In this document: in pieces, positions 9,087-19,843 of the stretch | Numbering within the stretch: position 1 is the stretch's first letter | How the letters are laid out: each line of letters starts with the position of its first letter | Origin: Candidatus Latescibacterota bacterium | Lineage (GTDB): Bacteria > Latescibacterota > UBA2968 > UBA8231 | Direction of reading: 5' to 3' | NCBI GenBank assembly: GCA_965208105.1 | Contig: OZ242318.1 | Span: 800,001 to 864,000 of the forward strand | DNA: 64,000 nt | The notes under the pieces: model-generated | The model's database searches: none | The model's input: the letters and a program-made list of their open reading frames with translations, nothing else | Told to the model about the DNA's origin: nothing | Made by a program: the position numbers and the translations under genes

Positions 9087-11006
9087 TCAACTCTCCGGCA
9101 GCAAGTTGTACTTCTTCACCTTGCGGTGCAGGGTCGTGCGGTCGATGTTCAGCACCCGTGCGGCCCGGGTGATGTTGCTTCGTGAGAATTCGAGGGCGCG
9201 GACAATGGCCTGCCGCTCGGCTTCCTGCATCGAGAGGGGGTGATGGTCAGCGGCCTCGGGGCCGGTTGGAGGTGGAACCACCGCGGAGAGTTGGGGAGGA
9301 AGGCTGATTACCTGCAGGCGGTCGGTGGTCTCCAGCAACACGGCGCGTTCAATGGCGTTTCTCAGCTCGCGCACGTTTCCCGGCCAGTCGTAGGCCAGCA
9401 TTCTCTGCAGCGCCGCCGGGGAGATCCCGCGTATGTCTTCCCCGGAGCGATCGGCGTGTTCTTTCATAAAGTGTGCCGCCAACAAAGGGATGTCCTCACG
9501 GTGCTCTCTGAGCGGCGGTATGTCGAGGGGAAAGGCAGCCAGGCGGTAGAACAGGTCTGCGCGGAATCCGCCTTCATTCACCACGGTTTGCAGGTCCCGG
9601 TTGGTGGCCGCGATAACGCGGATGTCGATGGGAATCGTGGAGGTTCCACCCACCCGCTGGAGCTCCCGCTCTTCCAGGACACGCAGCAACTTGGCCTGCA
9701 GGGCCAGGGGCATGTCGCCGATTTCGTCGAGCAGAACGGTTCCTCCCTGGGCGCGCTCGAACTGCCCGATGCGCCGCGCCGACGCCCCCGTAAACGCCCC
9801 GCGTTCATGTCCGAACAGCTCGCTCTCGATCAGCGACTCGGGAATGGCGGCGCAATTGACCCCGATGAAGGGAGCCGCCTTCCTGCGGCTGTTATAGTGA
9901 ATCAGCCTGGCGACGAGCTCTTTGCCGGTTCCGCTTTCGCCTTGGATCAGCACCGTGATGTCGCTTTCGGCCGCCCGCCGCATCAAGGCGTAGAGGTCCT
10001 GCATGTTTTTGCTTTTGCCCACCATGCCGTCCATGGCGTAGGTCTTTCCCAGTTCCTCGCGCAAGCGCAGGACCTCGGATTTCATGCGCTCGCCCTCGAC
10101 CTCCCTGGACACGTCGCGGTAGATGACGACATGCCCCGTGGTGCCTTGCCGGCTGTCGTTTACGGGCGCGGTCGAGCGGAAGAACAGCCGGGGATTTGAG
10201 GTCCCGGCGGTGCTGACCTCCTCCTCCAGGTCGCCCGCGCCGTCGAGAAACAGCGTGCGCCACGATTCCGGAAGGACCGGCGGGCGGAGGCGGGCACAGA
10301 GGAGGGACCGGAGTTCACCGGGAGGCATCTGCCTGAGGTCGCCTTCCCCGGCATCGAGAAGTTCCTCGTATCCCCGGTTGGCCACCTGCAGGCGTCCATC
10401 GGCGCCGAACATGCCGATGGCATCTCCCGTGGCGTCGAGCACTGCCTGGAGTCTCCGGTTGCTGGCCTCGAGCCGCCGGTTGCTGGTTTCCAGGTCCCGC
10501 CTGTTGCGTGCCAGGTCCTGCTCGATGTTCCACTTCCCGGTGAGCGAAGCCGTGATCTGCTGGATCTCCTCCCGGGAAAATGGTTTTCGGATGAACAGCA
10601 GCTTGTGAAGAAACTCCATGTCGTCGACGATCTCGGGCAGGGTCCTGTCGGAGTACGCGGTCATGATCACGATTTCCATATCCGGCTCGAACTTGCGGAT
10701 CCTGCGCACTGTTTCTATTCCGTCAGCTCCCGGCGGCATCCTGACGTCCACATAGGCCATCGCAAAGGGACGCTTCGATTTCCTACCCGCCTTGACCATC
10801 TCCAGGGCTTCATCCCCGCTCACAGCATGGGCGAGCTCGAACTGCGGGAGAAATTGTTTTCCCGTATCCGGGACGAAGGTCGATGCCAGATCGTCGGTTG
10901 CCCTCCCTGTGGACCCGCTGGACAGCATCTCCTCGAAGTCGTTGTGGATTTCCTCCTGGTCGTCGACGACCAGGACTCGGTAGTTCCAGGATTGGTTCGA
11001 TTTCAT
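9087..11006 (-). CDS. Sigma54-dependent response regulator (REC-coiled coil-PAS-AAA+-Fis HTH)
   Basis: VLVVDD..DVRMPPG receiver; GESGTGKE; GAFTGA; LLDEIG; [10 protein letters not shown]; C-terminal HTH ([19 protein letters not shown]). Confidence 0.95.
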
Positions 11007-11123
11007 GAAGCAACCTTTACAGCCTCTTGACCATGGAGGCGGGCAGAAATTGGATGGTTTGGATTTCAGTCGAGATCGAAGGCTCAGGCGTGATCAGACG
11101 GGAATTTCCGGGGTGATGTATCC

Positions 11124-12401
11124 TCAGGGGAGGACGGAATCGAGCCGCAACTCGACGCGCATGGTGGTGCCCGTTCCGCGGCCGTTGCTCAATGGTTGGA
11201 TTTTTCCCCCGGAGCCAGTGACGAAGTTGGCCGCCGAATGGAGGCCCAGCCCGCTCCCCTCCCGCTTGGTCGTATAGCCTGCCCCGAAGATCGCTTTGAG
11301 GTTTTTCCGGTCGATGCCGATACCGTTGTCCTCTACCTCGAGGACGAGAAAATCCTGCCGCACATAGGCTCTGATCTCGATGCGGGGCTGTCCCCTGAGC
11401 CCGCCCGACCGGTTCAGCTCCTCGATGGCTTCCATCGCATTCTTGAGCAGGTTGACCAGCATCTGATTGAACTGGGATTCCTGAACGCGAATCTCTTTGG
11501 GAGCGCCTGCGCAGTCCACATGCGTCTGTATCCCTTTGCTGGCAAACGAGTCCCGCACGATCCTCATGGCGCCGGAGATGGCCTGGCGCAGGTTGACGTC
11601 CTTGCTGGTCATGGCCTTGCTGTCAAAGCCGCGTTGCGCGCGCACGATGTCCACGATGTGGCTCGTCTGGCTGTTGACGCGTTCGACCGTGCGGATCAGT
11701 TCCTGATTCTGCTCGACGAAGTCGCCGGCAAGGGCAAGCAGAAACGGCCGGACCTGCCGGCCTTGCGCATCATGCTGGACGTACTCACCCCAGTCCTCCG
11801 CGTGACCTTCGGCGGTCTCCGACAAGGCCGACAGGCGTTCGATCAGCGGATTCTTCTCCAACTCCTCTTTCAGGGTCCCGACGCCGATGGCCACGCTGGT
11901 GATGGCGTTGCCGATGTTGTGCAGGATGGTGTCCATGACCTCCAGGCGGCCTTGTGCGAAAGCCTGGGCAAGGGCCTCGTCCGCCCGCACCTTCTCCGTT
12001 ACGTCGCGGAATACGGTGACCCCGCCGCGGACGGCCCCGGGCATCCTGATGGGCCTGCCGCTGGCACTGATATGGACCCCCTCGGGCTTGGCCGCGGTGC
12101 GGATGAACATCTCCATCTCGTCGGTGGCCTCCCCGCGCATCGCCCGCACCAGCGGCAGTTCCTCGGTTGGAACGGGCGTGGCCTGGTCGGCGTAGAATAT
12201 GCTGTATTCCTCCGTCCATCGGTCGGGGAGGGCATCCAGAGTCGAGCCGATTATGCGTTCCGCACTGGGGTTGAAGGTGAGGCCGCCATTCTCGTCGGCG
12301 ACTATCACACCGTCGCTGATGCTGTCGAAAATGGCCTGCATGAGTTGGATCTGGTGCTGAAGCTGGTCGACCGTGCTATTCAACTGAGCTCTGTTTCCCA
12401 T
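11124..12401 (-). CDS. Cytoplasmic PAS-domain sensor histidine kinase
   Basis: PAS (IFDSISDGVIVAD..FNPSAERI); H-box LHNIGNA; NLLKNAMEA; DNGIGI; GSGLGL. No TM helix seen. Confidence 0.92.
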   Translation of the reverse strand: MGNRAQLNSTVDQLQHQIQLMQAIFDSISDGVIVADENGGLTFNPSAERIIGSTLDALPDRWTEEYSIFYADQATPVPTEELPLVRAMRGEATDEMEMFIRTAAKPEGVHISASGRPIRMPGAVRGGVTVFRDVTEKVRADEALAQAFAQGRLEVMDTILHNIGNAITSVAIGVGTLKEELEKNPLIERLSALSETAEGHAEDWGEYVQHDAQGRQVRPFLLALAGDFVEQNQELIRTVERVNSQTSHIVDIVRAQRGFDSKAMTSKDVNLRQAISGAMRIVRDSFASKGIQTHVDCAGAPKEIRVQESQFNQMLVNLLKNAMEAIEELNRSGGLRGQPRIEIRAYVRQDFLVLEVEDNGIGIDRKNLKAIFGAGYTTKREGSGLGLHSAANFVTGSGGKIQPLSNGRGTGTTMRVELRLDSVLP

Positions 12402-12432: not shown

Positions 12433-13953
12433 TCAACCGCCGCGATATTCGTCCCGCGCCTGCACCATCGCCGCGAGCTTGGCCTCGGCGACGCGGGCGG
12501 ATGCCACCGGGTTGTCGGCGAAGGTGGCGAAGCCGCAGTCGGGTGTAAGCAGGACGCGCTCGGCCCCGAATAGATCGGCGGCGCGGGAGATGCTCCGGCG
12601 TATGTCGTCAACCTGCTCCACCGCGTCCAGCTTCTGGTTGACCACGCCTATGCCGATGCGCTTGTCGCCGGGGATGTCCCGCAGCACCTCCGCTTCGCCG
12701 GCGCGCTCGGTGCAGAGCTCGAGGAAGAGAGTGCCCACCTGCGCGCGCATCAGGACCTCCAGGAGAGGCCGGTAGTCTCCCGCCAGGGCGGCGGACTCGT
12801 CCCGGGTCCAGTTGCCCCGGCAGATGTGCAGTCCCAGGCGCTCCGGCGGCAGGCCCCGGACCACCTCGTTGAGAAGACCGGAGGCGAAGTCCAGCTCCGG
12901 AGCTGTCTCCAGCTTCTCGCCCAGGGCGCCGCACATGAAGGTGCGGTTCTGGCTGGAGGCGCCGAAGACCACTTCGCTCAACACCGGCTCGTCGAACTGC
13001 ACCAGGGAAACCCCTGCGGCAAGGAGAAAATGGAGCTCCTCGCGCAACACCCGGACCACGTCCCTGGAGAGGTCCTCGCGGGTGTCGTAGGGGCGCTCGG
13101 TGAGGCAGTCCATCCACATGGTGCGGGTGAGCAGGTAGGGACCGGGGAGGGCGACCTTGAGGGGAAGGTCGGCGCAGGAGCTGGCGAAATCAAACTCGTG
13201 GACGGTGAGGGGCCTGCTGCGCCCGAGGCTGGCGTAGACCACTGGATGCCGCACCTCCGCCGCCGGAACGTCCAGCGCGCGGAGCTCGCGCTCGAACTCC
13301 TCCGGATGGTCCACCATGGCGGTGAGGTCGCTGAGGGGGATGAGCTGGCAGTTGTCAAGCAACCCCCCGACGAAGCTGGCGTAGCTGTCGCGGCGCTGCT
13401 CGCCGTCGGTGAGCACGTCGGCCCCCGCCCGGACCTGGGCGTCGACACAGAGGCGCACCGCGTCGTCGGCGGTGGCCTGGAACTCCTCCTCCTCAAGCCT
13501 GCCCTCGAGGCGGTCGTGGATCGCCTGCAGCATCCAGCGCGGGCGGGGCCAGCTGCCGATGCCCATGACCGACAGCGGAGCGACCCCGGGAGCAGGGGCA
13601 GGGGCCGGCAGGGTCTCGGGAATGGAGACCTCCACCTTCAACTGCTGGCCGATGGCGGCGGTAGCCGGCCCGGCCTGCGACGGCGCCCGCTCCACCAGCG
13701 GGCCCTTGCTCACCAGGTAGCTGCGCTGCCCGCCTTCCCTGGTCCACGACACCAGCTCGTTCCTGGTCAGGCGGCACCAGGCCGGCAGCTCCACCTCGAC
13801 GGTGGAATCGGTGGACAGGATCTCCAGCAGACCTCCCTGGTTCATCGGGTCGATGTGCCTGCGGATGAGAAGCAACAGCCCCCCGCCGCAGTCCAGGTCG
13901 CCGCCGTCGAAGCTGACGTCCGGCTGGTATGGGTGTCGTTCCACCGGTTCCAT
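12433..13953 (-). CDS. Cobalamin-independent methionine synthase II (MetE catalytic barrel)-like protein with N-terminal TusA/SirA domain
   Basis: N-term FDGGDLDCGGG..LEILSTD..LPAWCR (TusA fold); GSWPRP, LTDGEQRR, VQFDEP; Zn ligands HIC, E (LFLEL) and PDCGF. Confidence 0.85.
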   Translation of the reverse strand: MEPVERHPYQPDVSFDGGDLDCGGGLLLLIRRHIDPMNQGGLLEILSTDSTVEVELPAWCRLTRNELVSWTREGGQRSYLVSKGPLVERAPSQAGPATAAIGQQLKVEVSIPETLPAPAPAPGVAPLSVMGIGSWPRPRWMLQAIHDRLEGRLEEEEFQATADDAVRLCVDAQVRAGADVLTDGEQRRDSYASFVGGLLDNCQLIPLSDLTAMVDHPEEFERELRALDVPAAEVRHPVVYASLGRSRPLTVHEFDFASSCADLPLKVALPGPYLLTRTMWMDCLTERPYDTREDLSRDVVRVLREELHFLLAAGVSLVQFDEPVLSEVVFGASSQNRTFMCGALGEKLETAPELDFASGLLNEVVRGLPPERLGLHICRGNWTRDESAALAGDYRPLLEVLMRAQVGTLFLELCTERAGEAEVLRDIPGDKRIGIGVVNQKLDAVEQVDDIRRSISRAADLFGAERVLLTPDCGFATFADNPVASARVAEAKLAAMVQARDEYRGG

Positions 13954-13986
13954 GCTGCCCCCTTCCATGGCAAGAGGATCACGACC

Positions 13987-14349
13987 CTAGTAGGTGATGC
14001 ACGGGGTGCCGTCGGACAGAAACTCGACCAGCACCGCTCCTCCTACGATGGTCGCGCCGTCCACCAGGTTGCCTTCGTCCAGGCCGCGCTTTTTGAAGCA
14101 GGGCGCACAGACCAGGATGGTCCCCCCGCCTTCGGAGAAATTGCCCATCAGCTCCTTCAGGGGCATAAATCCCTCTTCGTGCACGTCGTCGGCGTATCCC
14201 CTCTGGGAGAGGCGCACGCCCTCGGTGCTCAGAAAGACGACGGTCTCCTGCTCGGAACCGAGGGCTGCGTTGGCGACGACGAAGGCCACGGTCGCCTTGT
14301 CGGTATCGTCTTTTGCACAGGTGAGACTGACGCAGAATTTTCCCGCCAT
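13987..14349 (-). CDS. DsrE/DsrF-like sulfur relay protein
   Basis: ATVAFVVANAA, VFLSTEGVRL, VCAPCFKKRGL; AGGAGG RBS. Confidence 0.88.
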   Translation of the reverse strand: MAGKFCVSLTCAKDDTDKATVAFVVANAALGSEQETVVFLSTEGVRLSQRGYADDVHEEGFMPLKELMGNFSEGGGTILVCAPCFKKRGLDEGNLVDGATIVGGAVLVEFLSDGTPCITY

Positions 14350-14388
14350 TGCTGTTTTCCTCCTGAGTTTGGGTTGTAGGGGCGTTCT

Positions 14389-14652
14389 TCAGCCGCCCTT
14401 GGCTTCGATCCAGTAGTGGGGATGCTCGGCGCGGAGCAGGCGGCGGCCGGTCAGCCGGCACCACGCCGGCAGGTCCACCGGCGCGCCCAGGTCCTGGGAG
14501 GTGAGCTTGAGCACTTCTCCGGGGTCGAGCTTCTGCATCCTCAGCCGCAGCAGGATGATGACCTCTCCGCAGCCCATGTGGCCGGCGTCCCACTCGTCGG
14601 CGGGGACCGGCAGGTCGGCTTCGGGAGTGCCGTGCTGGTCCGGTTCAGACAT
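14389..14652 (-). CDS. Sulfurtransferase TusA/SirA family protein
   Basis: WDAGHMGCGEVII..GEVLKLTSQDLGAPVDLPAWCRLTG. Confidence 0.85.
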   Translation of the reverse strand: MSEPDQHGTPEADLPVPADEWDAGHMGCGEVIILLRLRMQKLDPGEVLKLTSQDLGAPVDLPAWCRLTGRRLLRAEHPHYWIEAKGG

Positions 14653-15030
14653 CTGCCTGCCTCAGGCTCCTCCTGCGGTGACGCGCAGGCTCGGGAATGA
14701 ATGCGATGATCATGTACATGGCCGCTGCCAGACTGCTGCTGTCGGCCGCCCCGGATCGTGAGGTCGCGGCCTGGAGATTGCGGGCGGCACCACCCTTGAT
14801 TCGGTGATGACCGGCCAGGGGTAAATAAATGCCCTTTTCCGGTCCCACTGTCAAGACGCCGGGTTCAACGGAGCATCGGTGGTGCCCTGGCGAAACCTGG
14901 ACAATGCTGCAGCACCGCCCTGGCCACGGTCCGGTCGCCCCAGGCACCTGTGGGGGCAACCCTGGAGGCAGACCTCCATAGATAAATGGTACTACCAGGT
15001 ACCGAAACGGCTGCTGTCGCGGCGGAGACC

Positions 15031-17541
15031 CTATTTCAACAGCAACATTCTCCGCTCCCGCACAGATTCCCCGTCTGCCAACCGGTAGAAGTAGAGGCCG
15101 TTGGCTGCCTGCCGCCCGTGCTCGTCGGTTCCATCCCAGGTCACCCGGTAGTGCCCCGGGTCCTGGTGCTCCTCTACCAGGACCCTGACCCGTTGTCCGG
15201 TCACGTTGTAGACGGCCAACCGTATTGCGGCCGGTGCGGGCAATGTGTAGCGGATGGTGGTGGCCGAGTTGAAAGGATTGGGATAGTTCTGCTGCAGCGC
15301 AAAGCGCAGCGGCCGGGCAGATTCCCCCTCCTCGGTGACCGCGGTCACCGACCCGGACTCTTCGAACTGGAACGAATACAGCTTGGCTGCGCGCATCTCG
15401 AACTTGAGCCGCACCGTCTCTCCCACCAGAGGCGAAAGGTCGGGGTTGCCGCCCCAGGTGACCACCTTCCTTATGCGGTTGCGGCCGATGGGGTCGCAGT
15501 CGTCCAGACCGAATCCCCTGTAGGGTTCGCCTTGCTCATCGAGGACGGCCACCCTGGCCGTGCCCGCTGCCGAGGCGTTGATATTCAGCACCAGCCTGTC
15601 CCCCGAGAAAGTAATCGGGGGCGTGGTGAATCCGCCCCCCCCGTAGGGCGCGTCGGCGGACATGAACCCGTCCAGGCGCTGAACCACGCGGCGGATGGCT
15701 CCTCGAGGCGGGTCCCCAGGCTCGCTCCTGCCGCCGACAGAGTGAGTGTAGTTGAAACCGCCGTAGTACTGGTAGATCTCGTTCCCGGACCTCAGCATGC
15801 CCACGCCCATATACATCGTGCCGCCGTCGCCGGTCCCGTCCAGTCCCAGAGCGCCATACGGTCTCCGGTCCGCGCGCTTCCAGCGGATGCCGTCGCGTGA
15901 GGTGGCCATCTGGATCTCCACCAGGTCGGAATCCACGGTGCGGGGATCGTCCGGGGATGCGAATCCCCAGGGCGTTTTTATCCAGACCATGACGGTGAAG
16001 TTCCGCCCGTTCAGGTCCAGCTCAGGCCCGCGGCCGCAGTCCACGTAGCCGTTGCCCCCCAGCTCCAGTGCGCCCCCGAGACCCTGCGACCAGCGAAAAC
16101 TTCCCTTCAAGGCAGCGGTATTGCCGTGTCCCGAGAAATCCTCCGCCACCTCTCCCTCGCCCTCGTCGAAGGTCCAGTATGCGGCCAGGGCCTCGTCCGA
16201 CCCCACTACTCCAGCTTCCTCCCCCCGCAGCAGCGCCGCGGTCTGCCGGTAGTAGGCCTCGACCTCCGCAGCAGACAGGCCCCGGTGATAGATCCTCACT
16301 TCGTCGATGGTTCCGCTGAAGCCGTTACGGAAGGTGCCTCCTCTGTTGGCGGCCGCTCCAATGTAGAGGCGGTTGGTGCCGGAATAGGGGGTGGCGGAGG
16401 ATCCGGGCTCCTTGCGGACGTGGTACACGGCTTCGGCGCCGTCGATGTACAAACGGTAGGACGCTCCATCATAGGTGGCGGCGAGATGGTACCAGCGCGA
16501 GGGCTGGAGGGAAGCCTCGGACATGAGGCTGGCCTGGTCCCTGGCCTTGTTGGCGGTCCAGAAGGCGGTGCTGACCCGCCCGTGCTCGTTGTGCAGCATC
16601 AGGCGGTACTCGGGGAAGTTCCTGCCGCCCAGCTCCTTGGTCAGGATGGCCGCGGTGGGCGTGCCGGAATAATGCCTGAAGAGGCTGGGAAAGGCGAGGT
16701 AGGCTTCCTGGGCCCAGGGGTATTTCACAACGGAGGGGTTGTAGAGGTCCGAGTCGGGCGGGTCGAGCCCGTCGGGAGCGAGCACGGTGGGAAGCTCGCC
16801 GCCGCGGATATAGCCGTAGGTGCGTCCTTCCCCTGGAGGTCCCGAGCTGCCGCGCGGCGGAGTATGGGGCCAGGGCTGGGTAATGTCATCCATCTCCACC
16901 CGGGCCACCGAGCGATTGTTGCTGGTCCAGGCGCGCAGGAAGGCCACGTACTTGCCGATCCGGTCGTCCCAGAATCCCTGGTTCTGGGTGTCGGCATTGA
17001 AGGGCAGCAACATTCCCCGGCACTCCCAGTGGATGCCGTCCGGCGAAGTCCCCACGGTCACGCCGCCGCCGCCGCAGCCGCGGCCGACGAACTTGAAGCG
17101 CTCTTCGGGCCTGCCGTGCTCGTCCAGGAACACCGCACCTACCGCGTTCTTGAGGACGATGTTGTTTTCCATCGAGCCTTCGAACTCGACCACGTTGCAC
17201 GGCGGGCGGCGCCAGTGCACCCCGTCGTCGGACTCGGCGTAGCATACGTTGCGGCTCTCGAACGACGACGCGTCGTACCACATCAAATACTTCCCTCCGT
17301 ACTCCACCACCGAGCTGTAGGCCCCGACTCTCTTGCTCTCCCAGGGTCTTTCCGGCCGCAGTACCGCTTCTTCCTTGCGCGGAGGATTGACCACCAGGGT
17401 TATGGCGTCGTTTTCGGCAAAGAAACGGTCGTCGATGAACAGCTGTTTCCTCGAACCTACGTCGATGGCCTCATCGGAGAAGGCGTCGAAGCCGGTGAAC
17501 AAACAGCCGGTGACCAGCGCCGCTATCATCGCGTTCTTCAC
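15031..17541 (-). CDS. Secreted glycosidase-like beta-propeller protein with inserted LamG domain and C-terminal FlgD/T9SS-like domain
   Basis: GTG start after AAGGAG; signal peptide; KQLFIDD; Asp-box-like SDDGVHW, SPDGIHW, SRDGIRW; RLDGF; LamG motifs; ALQQNYPNPFN..WDGTDEHG..GLYFYRL. Confidence 0.85.
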   Translation of the reverse strand: MKNAMIAALVTGCLFTGFDAFSDEAIDVGSRKQLFIDDRFFAENDAITLVVNPPRKEEAVLRPERPWESKRVGAYSSVVEYGGKYLMWYDASSFESRNVCYAESDDGVHWRRPPCNVVEFEGSMENNIVLKNAVGAVFLDEHGRPEERFKFVGRGCGGGGVTVGTSPDGIHWECRGMLLPFNADTQNQGFWDDRIGKYVAFLRAWTSNNRSVARVEMDDITQPWPHTPPRGSSGPPGEGRTYGYIRGGELPTVLAPDGLDPPDSDLYNPSVVKYPWAQEAYLAFPSLFRHYSGTPTAAILTKELGGRNFPEYRLMLHNEHGRVSTAFWTANKARDQASLMSEASLQPSRWYHLAATYDGASYRLYIDGAEAVYHVRKEPGSSATPYSGTNRLYIGAAANRGGTFRNGFSGTIDEVRIYHRGLSAAEVEAYYRQTAALLRGEEAGVVGSDEALAAYWTFDEGEGEVAEDFSGHGNTAALKGSFRWSQGLGGALELGGNGYVDCGRGPELDLNGRNFTVMVWIKTPWGFASPDDPRTVDSDLVEIQMATSRDGIRWKRADRRPYGALGLDGTGDGGTMYMGVGMLRSGNEIYQYYGGFNYTHSVGGRSEPGDPPRGAIRRVVQRLDGFMSADAPYGGGGFTTPPITFSGDRLVLNINASAAGTARVAVLDEQGEPYRGFGLDDCDPIGRNRIRKVVTWGGNPDLSPLVGETVRLKFEMRAAKLYSFQFEESGSVTAVTEEGESARPLRFALQQNYPNPFNSATTIRYTLPAPAAIRLAVYNVTGQRVRVLVEEHQDPGHYRVTWDGTDEHGRQAANGLYFYRLADGESVRERRMLLLK

Positions 17542-17605
17542 GGTCTTGACTCCTTGTAGTTCCGGTCCTTCCCGCCCGACTCCCGCCCGCGGCCAACCCT
17601 CCGGC

Positions 17606-19843
17606 TCATTCGTCCTCCACCTCCAGCACAAGCACCTCGTGGAGCTCCACCCTGGGCACGAGGACCGCATCCGAATCGATCTCCAGGTTTCGGCCCTGCA
17701 GCGGCAACCGCGCCGACTTCAGCTCGAGCCCGGTGAATCGCACCACGATGTCGCGCAAGGGAACCAGCTCGCGGGGTGCGTGGAAGGCGCCGTCGTCCCG
17801 ATGGTTGTCGAAGTCCTCTTCGTTGTAGATCCGCCACGGGATCAACGGATTGGGGTTGTTGACCAGGTGCACCATCAGCTCCCCCGAAGGCCTCACCGCA
17901 GCGGTGATCTCCAGCGCTTCCGGCGCCTCGATCTCGAAGGGTGCGGTGGTGCGGCGAACCAGGTGGACGACGAAGCTCTTCAGCATGGCATACGGGCTTT
18001 CCATGAAGGCACTGCCCACGTCTGCGGCGAGGTAATAGGCCCTGCCCCTGCCGAAGCGGTTCACAACCACCGCCGGCTCGCCGCTGTCGAAGGGCCGCTG
18101 CGGGTGAAAGCGGTCCAGCGGATTCACATCTTCCAGGTTGGACCGCGTGCACAATATCTCCACTCCCCCGCGGGTGCGAATCTCCGCTTCCCTGCCGTAC
18201 ATGCAGATGATGTCGCCCATCTCCTTCCTGAGCCGTTCCTCCTGCGGCACCAGGGCGATCGGTCCCTCCTCCCGCTTCTGCCCGTCCTCGCCCGTCCTCT
18301 CGCGGGTGCCGGCGTATTCGACCCCCAGCACCTTCTCGAGACCGAACCTCCCGCGATCGTACCCAAACTCGTCCAGCAGGGAGGTCTGGTAAGTTGCTAT
18401 CAGGGTGCCGCCTCCGTCGACGTATCCGGCTACCGCCTCGCACTGGGCGTCCGACAGGCAGGCGCTGTTGGAGAGAAAGAGGAGACCGTACTGCCCGAGG
18501 TGCCCTGGAACGATATGTTCGTCGAAGGCCAGGTCGAGGGGAAGATGGGAGCGGTTGAGCATCTCGTAGACGCCGTGGACGTAGCGCTGATGGAGCTGGC
18601 GCCATCCCGCGACGGTCGGCGGTCCCCGGTGGATCTCCCCGGGATTGAAGTCCCGGTTCCGGGTCGAGTAGTGCAGGGCGAGGTACTTGAGACTCTCCCC
18701 TTCCAGGTAGTCCTCCCTTTGCCTCATTCCGGCGAACACCCTCCTGTGGGCGTCGGCGTTGACGAAGATGTTGCCCCCCTTGATGACGCGGCCGGGGAGG
18801 GGCTCGCCGCAGGAGGCGCCGCCGTGAGCCATGGCCACCGCAGCGAAGACCGCCGCTTCGCGCCCCCGTGGGTACGGCGCCAGACCGAACCCCTTCAGCG
18901 GTTCCGAGGGAACGCGGAATAGCCCGAACGGGGTCCCCGAGGCGCGCAGCACCTTGGCCACGAATCCGGGCTCGCGCAGATAGCGGTGTGGAGCGGGAAA
19001 GGTTTCCACGAAGGAATGGCCGCCCACTTCGTGCAGGCGGAGGGAGGCGATGGGATGGCCCTGGGACCATTCCGCCGTGGGCCAGTAATAGGTGTTCAGG
19101 TCCAGGATGGCGTCGGGGTAGCGGGAACGCACCGAGCGAAAAAAATGATGGAGGAACTCGATGAGCTTGTCGTAGCGCCAGTTGACGAAGTGGCGGAAGG
19201 CCCTGGAGTCGAAGTCCACCTTCCGGGGGATATCGAAGCCCGTGTCCTCGTTGAACTGCCGGGCGCAGAACCGGCAGCAGCAGGACGGGACATAGGGCGA
19301 GTTGTCGTGGGAGCCCCAGTTGACGTCGTCGAAGTAGAACCCGTCGATGTCCAGGTTGTCCATGAAATCGCTCAGGCACTCGGGCAGCCAGTCGCGGAAG
19401 GGCGAATTGAAGCAGAACCAGCCCTGGTTCTCGGGAATCGGCCGGCCGTCGTCGACAAACTGCATGAGCCACTCCGGATGCAGGTCCCGCAGCGGTTTGG
19501 AGAAGTTGATCGGGTAGTAGGACAGCACGATGATGCCGCGCCGGTGACAGAGCTCGATGAAGCGGGGGTTCAGGTCCTGGTCCAGGTGGGGGTGAGGCGC
19601 GAAGATGCGCGAGGGGAAACGAGGCGTGCCGCGATTGAATGCGCCGGAGACGATGGCGACCTCGAAGCCGGCTGCGCTGATGGCGTCCACGTACTCCTCG
19701 GGCGTGGGACAATCCAACGGCTCCCCGGCGGGGGGAGGAGGATAGTGGGCCTCGATGCGGCATACCCGTTTTTCGTAGGGCTTTTCCGCCAGGCGCTGCG
19801 CGGTGCTTCCCACCCTTCTCAGCGGCGGAGGTCCGGAGTTCAT
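17606..19843 (-). CDS. Uncharacterised glycoside hydrolase-like protein (TIM barrel plus beta-galactosidase trimerisation-like domain)
   Basis: HPEW, CFNSPFRDW, DGFYFDD, CCCRFC; LSNSACLSD..YVDGGGTLIATYQTSLLDE. Confidence 0.8.
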   Translation of the reverse strand: MNSGPPPLRRVGSTAQRLAEKPYEKRVCRIEAHYPPPPAGEPLDCPTPEEYVDAISAAGFEVAIVSGAFNRGTPRFPSRIFAPHPHLDQDLNPRFIELCHRRGIIVLSYYPINFSKPLRDLHPEWLMQFVDDGRPIPENQGWFCFNSPFRDWLPECLSDFMDNLDIDGFYFDDVNWGSHDNSPYVPSCCCRFCARQFNEDTGFDIPRKVDFDSRAFRHFVNWRYDKLIEFLHHFFRSVRSRYPDAILDLNTYYWPTAEWSQGHPIASLRLHEVGGHSFVETFPAPHRYLREPGFVAKVLRASGTPFGLFRVPSEPLKGFGLAPYPRGREAAVFAAVAMAHGGASCGEPLPGRVIKGGNIFVNADAHRRVFAGMRQREDYLEGESLKYLALHYSTRNRDFNPGEIHRGPPTVAGWRQLHQRYVHGVYEMLNRSHLPLDLAFDEHIVPGHLGQYGLLFLSNSACLSDAQCEAVAGYVDGGGTLIATYQTSLLDEFGYDRGRFGLEKVLGVEYAGTRERTGEDGQKREEGPIALVPQEERLRKEMGDIICMYGREAEIRTRGGVEILCTRSNLEDVNPLDRFHPQRPFDSGEPAVVVNRFGRGRAYYLAADVGSAFMESPYAMLKSFVVHLVRRTTAPFEIEAPEALEITAAVRPSGELMVHLVNNPNPLIPWRIYNEEDFDNHRDDGAFHAPRELVPLRDIVVRFTGLELKSARLPLQGRNLEIDSDAVLVPRVELHEVLVLEVEDE

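What the first reader, a model, noticed from the sequence alone, without database searches (positions are those of the whole stretch)
12433..14652. TusA - DsrE - TusA::MetE-like operon: candidate undescribed sulfur-relay thiol-alkylation system
Seen: three co-oriented genes, a TusA, a DsrE (CAPC) and a single-barrel MetE-like Zn enzyme (HxC/E/C intact, no folate-binding N-terminal barrel) fused to a second TusA. Both TusA domains replace the usual CPxP with D.G...CG and share a second Cys in LPAWCRLT. The free TusA ends in GG. Established: TusA and DsrE relay persulfide or thiosulfonate sulfur, and MetE-fold Zn sites activate thiols for alkylation (methionine synthases, epoxyalkane:CoM transferase). 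Inferred: the relay delivers protein-bound sulfur to the Zn site, or removes it, for C-S bond formation or cleavage on a substrate other than homocysteine plus methyl-THF. I know of no characterised enzyme with this architecture.
Basis: partly seen in the sequence, partly recalled or inferred. Interest (0 to 1): 0.78.

Follow-up and report, generated by a model that had tools for sequence, protein, structure and literature searches.

The report
TusA-tethered MetE-like enzyme with DsrE
A small three-gene unit found in many uncultured soil, sediment and sponge bacteria joins a sulfur-carrier relay to a zinc enzyme built like methionine synthase, a combination nobody seems to have studied and which may be a new way of handling the sulfur of homocysteine.

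Summary
Three tightly packed minus-strand genes encode a free TusA (14389-14652), a DsrE with an invariant C-x-x-C (13987-14349), and a TusA domain joined by a linker to a single MetE-type barrel (12433-13968).

The unit is strongly conserved. The one genome-collection scan found 176 loci, of which 80 were kept. DsrE lies beside the fusion in 78 of 80 and a free TusA in 59 of 80. They come from Dehalococcoidia, Latescibacterota, Binatia, Methylomirabilota, Planctomycetota and Verrucomicrobiota. No other neighbour is shared across phyla, and the distribution is patchy, as gene transfer would give.

The barrel keeps all four zinc ligands and all three homocysteine-anchoring residues of MetE. Its methyl-donor face has gained three invariant cysteines.

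In the window's genome these are the only TusA and DsrE genes. In Binatia the unit sits beside metY-metX-metW.

Two details fall. The C-terminal GG is not conserved, and the second TusA cysteine is ordinary.

Function is untested. I favour (0.4) transfer of sulfane sulfur from the tethered TusA to the zinc/homocysteine pocket, over a folate-free methionine synthase (0.3). None of my five full-text searches on this architecture found it described.

The parts
14389..14652 (-). Free TusA, 87 aa. Invariant C28 aligns with E. coli TusA Cys19; invariant C65 aligns with E. coli Cys56. The usual C-P-x-P is replaced by C-G.
   Evidence: Present upstream of DsrE in 59 of 80 loci. Missing in all 19 Binatia loci.
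13987..14349 (-). DsrE-family protein, 120 aa, with invariant C6, C81 and C84 (the V-C-A-P-C motif).
   Evidence: 78 of 78. The best solved relative, 3mc3, shares the first cysteine of the motif but not the second. Beside the fusion in 78 of 80 loci. It is the only DsrE in the genome.
13699..13926 (-). TusA domain of the fusion, about residues 15-90, with invariant C27 and C65.
   Evidence: pLDDT 77-93 in the model.
13573..13698 (-). Pro/Ala-rich linker, about residues 91-132. Residues 97-109 are predicted disordered; from about residue 111 the pLDDT is above 90.
   Evidence: the segment with pLDDT under 50 is 97-109, and the blocks 111-140 score 91-97.
12433..13572 (-). Single MetE-type (beta/alpha)8 barrel, residues 133-511 plus the stop codon.
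- Zinc ligands: H381, C383, E417, C478.
- Homocysteine anchors: S139, E190, D326.
- Family-specific invariant residues: C207, H241, C288, C346.
14653..14987 (-). Upstream leader and promoter region. It is partly conserved with the Dehalococcoidia copies. No known RNA family matches it.
   Evidence: RNA-library contigs reach up to 14839.

Best explanation
This is a self-contained, horizontally mobile three-gene enzyme system.

**What is shown.**
- A free TusA, a DsrE with an extra resolving-type cysteine (C81-x-x-C84), and a MetE-type zinc barrel that carries its own TusA domain on a linker whose middle part is predicted disordered.
- The barrel keeps the complete zinc site and the complete L-homocysteine-anchoring set of MetE. 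It therefore holds homocysteine, or a four-carbon amino acid of the same shape, with the side-chain end on zinc.
- The face where MetE binds methyl-folate carries three invariant cysteines and an invariant histidine instead.

**What I infer.**
1. The tethered TusA acts as a swinging arm.
2. Its Cys27 is loaded with sulfane sulfur through DsrE Cys81/Cys84 and, where present, through the free TusA. The ultimate source would be a housekeeping cysteine desulfurase.
3. It docks on the rebuilt donor face and passes the sulfur, through the barrel's own cysteines, to the amino acid on zinc.
4. So the group moved is sulfur, not a methyl group.
5. The most useful net reaction would be formation of homocysteine from protein-bound persulfide, with homocysteine as the zinc-bound product. 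Persulfidation or de-persulfidation of homocysteine is the simpler alternative.
6. The many cysteines would resolve the mixed disulfide that such a reaction leaves.
For: **Anatomy.**
- All zinc ligands and homocysteine anchors are invariant (residue roles from passages of PMC539065).
- C288 lies three residues after W285, which aligns with the pterin-stacking Trp539. H241 follows R240, which aligns with the folate-tail Arg496. So the new cysteines and histidine sit on elements that form the donor face in MetE.
- C207 and C288 are absent from the nearest unfused relative, P0134.

**A dedicated relay.**
- The genome holds only these two TusA domains and this one DsrE.
- Every relay cysteine is invariant.
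- By my recalled knowledge, the only established cargo of TusA and DsrE is sulfane or thiosulfonate sulfur.

**A carrier-like tether.** The Pro/Ala linker is disordered at residues 97-109.

**Context.**
- In 18 of 19 Binatia loci, DsrE lies divergently next to metY, metX and metW. These are the genes that make homocysteine. The metY product scores 647.5 bits on TIGR01326 against a cut-off of 495.1, and metW is PF07021.
- The window's genome shows no MetX, MetA or HcyBio.
- No module-bearing genome has MetX or MetA: 0 of 31 Dehalococcoidia, and MetX in 0 of 11 Latescibacterota.

**Not merely a replacement methionine synthase.** Of 31 module-bearing Dehalococcoidia, 21 also have MetH, as do 4 of 5 other module genomes.
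Against: - No MetE-fold enzyme is known to make homocysteine or to take sulfur from a carrier. Every characterised homocysteine-binding MetE barrel is a methyl acceptor.
- The lack of MetX and MetA is not specific to module carriers. 238 of 270 module-free Dehalococcoidia lack both. All 31 genomes of Latescibacterota family f4 lack MetX, yet only 9 of them carry the module.
- Binatia have the full MetX/MetW/MetY route beside the module, so there the module would be redundant.
- The window's genome has two Cys/Met PLP enzymes that could make homocysteine by transsulfuration.
- The Binatia synteny is a single lineage, hence a single event.
- I have no coordinates, so the closeness of Cys27, C207, C288 and C346 to the zinc is inferred from alignment only.
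Confidence: 0.4

Rival explanations
1. It is a folate-free 'core' methionine synthase. The barrel methylates homocysteine from an unknown donor. TusA and DsrE present, regenerate or protect something needed for that step. One example would be keeping the zinc-site and donor-face cysteines reduced in oxic habitats.
For: - Family precedent: the homocysteine and zinc residues are intact, and Trp285 and Arg240 of the donor face are kept.
- The barrel's best family hits are all 'methionine synthase' models.
- In Binatia the gene sits in a met cluster, where a metE would be expected.
- Other core MetE enzymes all rely on a separate donor-presenting partner (abstract and passages of PMC7857596).
- The algal MetE-fusion also joins a thiol-arm carrier domain and an oxidoreductase to a core MetE (passages of PMC10861871).
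- The window's genome and its closest relative lack full-length MetH, and the window's genome lacks two-barrel MetE.
- 9 of 31 module-bearing Dehalococcoidia have neither.
Against: - A cysteine or persulfide sulfur is a poor carrier of a transferable methyl group. This is chemical reasoning, not tested.
- Nothing in the module could make a methyl donor.
- Most carriers already have MetH.
- The score is far below every curated methionine-synthase cut-off: 154.5 bits against 406.
- No cobalamin or SAM riboswitch was found in the window or in 10 loci.
- The window's genome has eight other single-barrel paralogues and split MetH-like modules that could do this job.
Confidence: 0.3
2. It is a zinc-dependent thiol alkyltransferase acting on a thiol other than homocysteine. 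An example would be methylation or other alkylation of the TusA persulfide itself, or of a small thiol.
For: - By my recalled knowledge, MetE-fold enzymes include a non-methionine case, epoxyalkane:CoM transferase.
- The module's flanking genes differ between lineages. A PhnCDE-type transporter lies directly upstream in 5 of 7 Methylomirabilota loci. A sulfatase lies directly upstream in 7 of 7 loci of one Latescibacterota genus.
Against: The three side chains that bind the alpha-amino and carboxylate groups of homocysteine are invariant across all 57 aligned sequences. That is hard to explain if the substrate is not an amino acid.
Confidence: 0.1
3. It is a redox or sulfur-status switch. The TusA domain and DsrE do not take part in catalysis. 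They switch the barrel on or off by reversible persulfidation or disulfide formation.
For: - There are many invariant cysteines, including a C-x-x-C.
- E. coli MetE is known to be inactivated by oxidation (mentioned in a passage of PMC12366255).
- A PAS histidine kinase and a sigma-54 regulator follow on the same strand in the window.
Against: - The kinase and regulator are conserved only in the closest relative, L005.
- Two or three dedicated proteins in a tight operon kept across six phyla is a heavy cost for a switch.
- The relay has no other client in the genome.
Confidence: 0.1

Closest known systems
Core (single-barrel) methionine synthases MesA-MesD / core-MetE (Price et al. 2021, PMC7857596; Deobald et al. 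2020, seen only as a citation)
   Same: A single MetE C-terminal barrel with no folate-binding barrel. The zinc site and homocysteine pocket are intact. It depends on a separate partner at the donor face.
   Different: - The known partners are corrinoid proteins or MesX. Here they are TusA (fused and free) and DsrE.
- The scores are below all curated cut-offs.
- There are three extra invariant cysteines.
- A term search of that paper returned no occurrence of TusA or DsrE.
MetE C-terminal barrel (T. maritima 1xdj/1xpg; N. crassa 4ztx)
   Same: The fold matches: Foldseek E about 1e-19 to 1e-20, probability 1.00. His/Cys/Glu/Cys zinc ligands, and Ser/Glu/Asp homocysteine anchors.
   Different: About 19% identity. 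No N-terminal barrel. The hairpin and the Trp-loop of the donor face carry C207, H241 and C288.
TusA-DsrE(FH) sulfur relays (E. coli Tus, Allochromatium Dsr, archaeal DsrE3A/TusA; recalled, not read here)
   Same: A TusA with the active cysteine at the helix start, and a DsrE with the active-loop cysteine. Adjacent genes.
   Different: - C-G replaces C-P-x-P in both TusA copies.
- DsrE has a second and a third invariant cysteine.
- The client is a MetE-fold enzyme, not tRNA thiolation, Dsr or Hdr.
- No other relay part is present in the genome.
Algal 'MetE-fusion' (PP-binding carrier + core MetE + CzcO/Pyr_redox_2; PMC10861871, passages read)
   Same: A core MetE barrel fused to a small carrier domain with a thiol arm, plus a redox partner. 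The donor is unknown.
   Different: The carrier there is an acyl-carrier-type domain with phosphopantetheine, the partner is a flavoprotein, and the organisms are eukaryotes. That paper reports no prokaryotic form with those extra domains.
Protein-bound-sulfur routes to homocysteine or cysteine (HcyS/MetY, CysO/CysM, the archaeal HcyBio route; recalled, not read here)
   Same: Sulfur enters the amino acid from a protein carrier rather than from free sulfide. They work like what I propose.
   Different: Those use thiocarboxylate carriers with PLP enzymes, or an Fe-S-dependent enzyme. None uses TusA/DsrE or a MetE fold. HcyBio was not found in the window's genome.

Membership tests
Meth_synt_2 / MetE catalytic barrel superfamily | Pfam PF01717 above the gathering score, and a MetE-like fold | tested here: met
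   95.6 bits against 21. Foldseek top hits are MetE barrels, E about 1e-19 to 1e-20.
Meth_synt_2 / MetE catalytic barrel superfamily | Zinc ligands His-x-Cys ... Glu ... Cys | tested here: met
   H381, C383 and C478 are 97-100% conserved. H381 is invariant and C383, E417 and C478 are at least 90% conserved across 57 sequences. E417 aligns with Glu642 and C478 with Cys704; H381-x-C383 aligns with the H-I-C of 3rpd.
Meth_synt_2 / MetE catalytic barrel superfamily | Homocysteine-anchoring Ser, Glu and Asp | tested here: met
   S139, E190 and D326 are invariant in 57 of 57 sequences. They align with Ser411, Glu462 and Asp577.
Canonical two-barrel MetE (EC 2.1.1.14) | N-terminal folate-binding barrel; TIGR01371 above its cut-off | tested here: not met
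   64.2 bits against 929.95. Only model positions 517-607 match.
Curated core methionine synthase equivalogs (NCBIfam PRK04326, PRK09121, PRK00957, PRK06233, PRK06520 and others) | Score above the curated cut-off | tested here: not met
   The best is PRK04326, 154.5 bits against 406.
MesD/MesX system | A MesX (PF08908) partner in the genome | tested here: inconclusive
   No match in the window's genome. However, the control search matched in none of the 14 control genomes, so the answer does not show absence.
MesB/MesC (CoFeSP-linked) | AcsC/AcsD corrinoid iron-sulfur protein in the genome | not tested
   I did not search for AcsC or AcsD.
TusA family | Pfam PF01206 above its cut-off; active cysteine at the start of helix 1 | tested here: met
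   Free copy 30.0 bits against 28.6. Fused copy 29.5 bits in the genome search but 26.2 bits. C28 aligns with Cys19 of E. coli TusA.
TusA family | The C-P-x-P motif. I recall this as typical of the family; the only tool evidence is the E. coli sequence. | tested here: not met
   C-G-E-V and C-G-G-G here. Every free-TusA row visible in the truncated printout of the alignment shows C-G.
DsrE/DsrF-like family | Pfam PF02635 above its cut-off; active-loop cysteine | tested here: met
   50.6 bits against 22.7. C81 aligns with the cysteine of 3mc3.
Ubiquitin-like thiocarboxylate sulfur carriers (ThiS/MoaD type) | A conserved C-terminal Gly-Gly | tested here: not met
   GG is present in 7 of 59 free TusA homologues and in 8 of the 80 fusion rows.

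The most novel reading that the evidence does not exclude
The MetE fold has been turned round. Instead of methylating homocysteine, the barrel would make homocysteine. It would join sulfane sulfur, brought by a tethered TusA persulfide carrier, to a four-carbon amino-acid precursor held on the zinc. That would be a PLP-independent, free-sulfide-independent route for sulfur into the methionine branch. It would be spread by gene transfer among uncultured soil, sediment and sponge bacteria.
Probability: 0.2. Interest if true: 0.9.

Novelty: new variant of a known kind. Interest (0 to 1): 0.68.

Why it matters
- **How sulfur and methyl groups enter methionine** is still open for large parts of the uncultured bacterial world. 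In my sample, 238 of 270 module-free and all 31 module-bearing Dehalococcoidia show neither MetX nor MetA.
- **The partner proteins of 'core' MetE enzymes** are a recognised open question: the methyl source of MesD/MesX, and that of the algal MetE-fusion.
- **This unit is small, self-contained, widespread and easy to express.** It makes the question directly testable: does a MetE barrel take something from a cysteine-based carrier arm, and if so what?
- **Either outcome would be new enzymology.** That holds for a sulfur-carrier-fed homocysteine enzyme and for a methionine synthase that depends on TusA and DsrE.
- **Annotation would improve.** These genes are now called 'methionine synthase' or 'TusA family protein' by automatic names only.

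Tried and rejected
- **Docking of the TusA domain on the barrel with zinc.** Score 0.00, no verdict. I use it neither for nor against.
- **Model coordinates.** They are not given to the script box, so I could measure no Cys-to-zinc distance.
- **C-terminal GG as a thiocarboxylate carrier.** Rejected: 7 of 59.
- **Second TusA cysteine as special.** Rejected: it aligns with the E. coli TusA cysteine.
- **Selenocysteine at a conserved cysteine.** The only in-frame stop seen, in L012, falls at the Q163 position and not at a cysteine.
- **A naturally split form (G407).** The gene is simply cut by the contig end.
- **Other fusions of the same barrel.** The longer hits P0176, P0185 and P0261 show no added carrier domain and look chimeric.
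- **Riboswitches or known RNAs.** None in the window, in 10 loci, or in the leader at a relaxed threshold.
- **Sigma-54 promoter.** 59 matches in the window against 65 expected, with nothing convincing upstream. The sigma-70 and terminator scan was not above chance.
- **A 23-24-codon upstream ORF overlapping the TusA start.** It appears only in 7 close loci and its peptide is not conserved, so I do not claim it.
- **Phylogenetic profiles against MetH, MetE, MetX and MetA.** They do not discriminate.
- **Tree against MesA-D and XecA.** Not built, because I had no tool-derived sequences of those proteins.
Full report
**What is there**

The minus strand of the window carries three close-packed genes.
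- A free TusA of 87 aa at 14389-14652.
- A DsrE-family protein of 120 aa at 13987-14349.
- A 511-aa protein at 12433-13968.
- The gaps between them are 39 and 18 nt.

Pfam confirms the families.
- TusA scores 30.0 bits against a cut-off of 28.6.
- DsrE scores 50.6 bits against 22.7.
- Meth_synt_2 scores 95.6 bits against 21.
- The fused TusA domain scores 26.2 bits in this scan and 29.5 bits, over the cut-off, in the six-frame genome search.

NCBIfam places the barrel near several 'methionine synthase' models, but far below every curated cut-off. The best is PRK04326 at 154.5 bits against 406. Two-barrel MetE (TIGR01371) scores 64 bits against 930.

An AlphaFold2 model built on a 57-row alignment is confident: mean pLDDT 86.6, pTM 0.84.
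- It shows a TusA-like alpha/beta domain at residues 18-87.
- A segment at residues 97-109 is predicted disordered.
- An ordered N-terminal extension follows, and then the barrel.
- Foldseek puts MetE C-terminal barrels first: 4ztx, 1xpg, 1t7l and 3rpd, with E about 1e-19 to 1e-20.

**The active site**

I combined two sources. One is the HMMER alignments to T. maritima MetE and to the Shewanella single-barrel protein 3rpd. The other is the residue roles stated in passages of Pejchal and Ludwig (PMC539065).
- S139, E190 and D326 correspond to Ser411, Glu462 and Asp577. These hold the carboxylate and amino group of homocysteine.
- H381, C383, E417 and C478 correspond to the zinc ligands His618, Cys620, Glu642 and Cys704.
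- S139, E190, D326 and H381 are invariant in all 57 aligned sequences, which include 13 unfused relatives.

So the amino-acid pocket of a methionine synthase is intact.

The other side of the pocket differs.
- C207, C288 and C346 are conserved in 80 of 80 fused homologues, as is H241.
- C288 lies three residues after W285, which aligns with the pterin-stacking Trp539.
- H241 follows R240, which aligns with Arg496 of the folate-tail groove.
- C207 and H241 lie on the two strands (205-211 and 240-249) that correspond to the extra-barrel hairpin covering the active site in MetE.
- The closest unfused relative, P0134 (40% identity), lacks C207 and C288.

**The relay proteins**

- *Free TusA.* It aligns with E. 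coli TusA (3lvj, 1dcj). Its invariant C28 is the E. coli active Cys19, and its second invariant cysteine is the E. coli G-F-C cysteine. The second cysteine is therefore an ordinary family trait.
- *The TusA motif.* Both TusA copies have C-G where E. coli has C-P-E-P.
- *The C-terminal GG.* It is found in only 7 of 59 free TusA homologues. It is not a carrier signature.
- *DsrE.* C6, C81 and C84 are invariant in 78 of 78. The best solved relative, 3mc3, shares only C81. The C-x-x-C is thus a feature of this subfamily.

**Conservation and spread**

*Protein searches.* The protein search gave 4738 hits at E up to 0.001 among the 8000 candidates scored.
- The 120 best clusters are all 470-702 aa, mostly about 506 aa, and 73-94% identical.
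- All 120 carry a precomputed PF01717 hit. 23 of the 120 carry a precomputed TusA hit, because the domain scores near Pfam's threshold.
- At 50% clustering, only 182 representatives reach E 1e-30. The family is tight in sequence.

*Genome-collection scan.* It matched 199 stretches. Of these, 176 encode a relative, and 80 loci were kept. By record title they come from:
- Dehalococcoidia and Chloroflexi, 36;
- Binatia, 19 (one of them titled Thermodesulfobacteriota);
- Latescibacterota, 8;
- Methylomirabilota/Rokubacteria, 7;
- Planctomycetota, 5;
- Verrucomicrobiota, 3;
- Eisenbacteria, 1;
- a betaproteobacterium, 1.

*Gene order.*
- DsrE lies just upstream of the fusion in 78 of 80 loci. The exceptions are L054, which is cut by its contig end, and L065, where it is not adjacent.
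- A free TusA lies upstream of DsrE in 59 of 80. It is missing in all 19 Binatia loci. It cannot be judged in L039 and L054, which are cut by contig ends.
- Clustering all ORFs of the 80 loci found no other gene shared across phyla. The remaining multi-phylum clusters are antisense or extended frames over the module itself.

*Distribution within phyla.* It is patchy.
- 11 of 168 Latescibacterota species genomes carry the full-length gene: two genomes of the window's own genus and nine of one other genus.
- 31 of 301 sampled Dehalococcoidia carry it.

*Signs of gene transfer.*
- The window's copy is 83% identical to Dehalococcoidia copies but 79% identical to those of the other Latescibacterota genus.
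- In four Dehalococcoidia loci a tRNA gene lies directly upstream.

*The window's own genome.* It is one contig of 4.85 Mb, 93.9% complete. These are its only two TusA domains and its only DsrE. The relay has no other client there.

**Context clues**

*Binatia.* 18 of 19 loci have, divergently next to DsrE:
- an O-acetylhomoserine sulfhydrylase (TIGR01326, 647.5 bits against 495.1);
- a probable MetX, inferred from its position beside metW and a 404-aa Abhydrolase_1 hit;
- MetW (PF07021);
- a PNP_UDP_1 phosphorylase in 16 of the 18.

None of the other 61 loci has these genes. This ties the module to the homocysteine/methionine branch, but it counts as one lineage.

*Other lineages.*
- In 5 of 7 Methylomirabilota loci, phnD, phnE and phnC lie directly upstream on the same strand. 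They score 160 bits on TIGR01098 (cut-off 112), 253 on TIGR01097 (cut-off 217) and 291 on TIGR02315 (cut-off 266). In L052 and L074 the phnC stop overlaps the TusA start.
- In 7 of 7 loci of one Latescibacterota genus, a sulfatase lies directly upstream.

*This window.*
- A PAS histidine kinase and a sigma-54 response regulator follow 31 nt downstream. They are shared only with the closest relative, L005.

*Regulatory signals.*
- No riboswitch or other known RNA was found.

**Is it the cell's methionine synthase?**

*The window's genome.*
- It has no full-length MetH (best 137 bits against 1011). Separate B12-binding, pterin-binding and homocysteine-binding pieces do exist.
- It has no two-barrel MetE.
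- It has eight further single-barrel MetE-like paralogues, none reaching a curated cut-off.

*Other carriers.*
- 4 of 5 other module genomes have a full MetH.
- Among the 31 module-bearing Dehalococcoidia, 21 have MetH at E up to 1e-150, and 20 of those are above the cut-off.
- One (G382) has two-barrel MetE. Nine have neither.
- The background is 106 of 301 for MetH and 26 of 301 for MetE.
- One of the 106, G388, is flagged unpublished. It is not a module carrier.

So the module is not simply a stand-in for MetH, and the profile does not settle the matter.

**Homocysteine supply**

- *The window's genome.* It shows no MetX, no MetA and no HcyBio. It has two Cys/Met PLP enzymes of unclear type.
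- *MetX in module carriers.* MetX was found in 0 of 31 module-bearing Dehalococcoidia and 0 of 11 module-bearing Latescibacterota.
- *MetA in module carriers.* MetA was found in 0 of those 31 Dehalococcoidia. I did not search for it across the phylum.
- *Background.* Most non-carriers lack these genes too: 30 of 301 Dehalococcoidia have MetX, 2 of 301 have MetA, and 34 of 168 Latescibacterota have MetX.

This fits my reading but is not specific to it.

**Expression and habitat**

- Using coded run ids only, runs labelled sponge metagenome from four studies hold 38-57% of the sampled words of the three genes. Two runs of a further study, labelled only 'metagenome', hold 35-36%.
- All 4 RNA-library runs that I laid, from 3 studies, carry contig pieces at 90-99% identity over all three genes.
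- In three of those runs a contig bridges the DsrE/fusion junction.
- The tool warns that DNA can be present in RNA libraries, and that contigs do not prove a single transcript. I take this as a weak hint of expression.

**Reasoning to a mechanism**

Shown:
- a homocysteine-shaped zinc pocket;
- a rebuilt, cysteine-rich donor face;
- a TusA domain on a linker;
- a dedicated DsrE with a C-x-x-C;
- co-inheritance of all of these.

Established for the families, from recall and not tested here:
- TusA and DsrE carry sulfane or thiosulfonate sulfur on cysteine and pass it on.
- MetE zinc sites activate a thiolate.

Inference:
1. The partner of a MetE-type barrel always serves the donor face.
2. Here the partner is a sulfur carrier, and a cysteine or persulfide sulfur is a poor holder of a transferable methyl group.
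3. So the group brought to the zinc-bound amino acid is most likely sulfur.

Net reactions, in order of preference:
1. Formation of homocysteine from a four-carbon precursor and TusA persulfide. Homocysteine is then the zinc-bound product, and the extra cysteines and the DsrE C-x-x-C resolve the disulfide left behind.
2. Persulfidation or de-persulfidation of homocysteine.

I give the sulfur-transfer reading 0.4. The main rival is a folate-free methionine synthase whose TusA/DsrE partner has an auxiliary role. It rests on family precedent and on the Binatia met cluster, and I give it 0.3.

**Comparison with what is known**

- It is a member of the MetE-barrel superfamily and of the TusA and DsrE families by score and by key residues.
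- It is not a canonical MetE, and it is not a member of any curated core methionine synthase family.
- The nearest ideas in print are the partner-dependent core methionine synthases (PMC7857596, abstract and passages) and the algal MetE-fusion with a carrier domain and an oxidoreductase (PMC10861871, passages).
- Searches for TusA in the text of those two papers and of PMC12366255 found no occurrence.
- Full-text searches for TusA with DsrE and methionine synthase, with MetE and fusion, with DsrE and homocysteine, and with cobalamin-independent found nothing relevant. A fifth search, on core methionine synthase terms, returned the three papers above and nothing else on this architecture.
- The library does not hold most subscription journals, and I saw no supplements. 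A mention elsewhere cannot be excluded.

**Verdict**

The feature is real, conserved and undescribed in what I could search. It is a new variant that combines two known kinds of system. Its reaction is unknown but directly testable.

Noticed in passing
Window's genome G000:C1, loci L081-L088 (for example 765129-766112, 235256-236230, 2072445-2073374): The genome carries eight further single-barrel MetE-like paralogues, each with an H-x-C and a D-C-G motif visible in its translation. None reaches any curated NCBIfam cut-off. There is no full-length MetH or two-barrel MetE. Separate B12-binding, pterin-binding and homocysteine-binding genes exist at about 1166593-1171943 and 4404516-4405409.
   Followed up: partly
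L098:7366-8184 (-) with L098:6218-7666 (-); L099:7414-8385 (-) with L099:6272-7414 (-): The closest unfused relatives of the barrel (45% identity, in two Latescibacterota genomes) are each preceded on the same strand by a PhnD-like, 'Rv1680-family-like' binding-protein gene. It has no obvious signal-peptide-like N-terminus by eye, and its end abuts or overlaps the start of the MetE-like gene. This looks like a second, different two-part core-MetE system.
   Followed up: partly
L052:3717-5980, L074, L011, L014, L010 (Methylomirabilota): A PhnD/PhnE/PhnC-type ABC transporter lies directly upstream of the free TusA on the same strand. In L052 and L074 the phnC stop overlaps the TusA start. A PhnD-like gene with a hydrophobic, signal-peptide-like N-terminal stretch also lies divergently next to the module in the planctomycete locus L012 (4991-5983).
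   Followed up: partly
L020:4580-5953 and the same place in L022, L023, L024, L026, L027, L029: In one Latescibacterota genus a sulfatase (PF00884 plus SGSH_C) lies directly upstream of the free TusA on the same strand, in 7 of 7 loci.
   Followed up: partly
L003:5723-5796; the same place in L002, L008, L046: A tRNA gene lies directly upstream of the module in four Dehalococcoidia genomes. That fits insertion at a tRNA site. Part of the roughly 110-nt leader between the tRNA and TusA resembles the leader in the window (14653-14760).
   Followed up: partly
window 14645-14719 (-): A 24-codon upstream ORF ends in a TGA that overlaps the TusA start. ORFs of the same length (23-24 codons) occur in 6 close relatives, but the peptides are not conserved. 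It may be a leader element or chance.
   Followed up: partly
window 9087-12401 (-): A PAS histidine kinase and a sigma-54-dependent response regulator start 31 nt after the fusion gene on the same strand. They are shared only with the closest relative, L005.
   Followed up: partly
P0129 (503 aa; representative): A divergent fused homologue (46% identity) keeps both TusA cysteines. In the alignment it has lost the zinc-ligand His and the last zinc Cys (D-A-G instead of D-C-G). It may be a non-catalytic paralogue.
   Followed up: no
L012:6598-8124: The fusion gene of this planctomycete MAG has one in-frame stop at the position of Q163. It is either a pseudogene or an assembly error.
   Followed up: yes
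L075:4094-5986: In the betaproteobacterial locus, a 631-aa ORF with no Pfam match sits between DsrE and the fusion gene.
   Followed up: no
window 15031-17670 (-) and 17606-19843 (-): The upstream neighbours are a large LamG/FlgD-Ig protein with a weak, sub-threshold match to a Por-type secretion tail, and, in L005, a glycoside-hydrolase-like protein (GHL6 / Glyco_hydro_42M); I assume the window ORF 17606-19843 is its counterpart but did not scan it. These look like polysaccharide-degradation genes. Close copies of the three module genes occur in runs labelled sponge metagenome.
   Followed up: no
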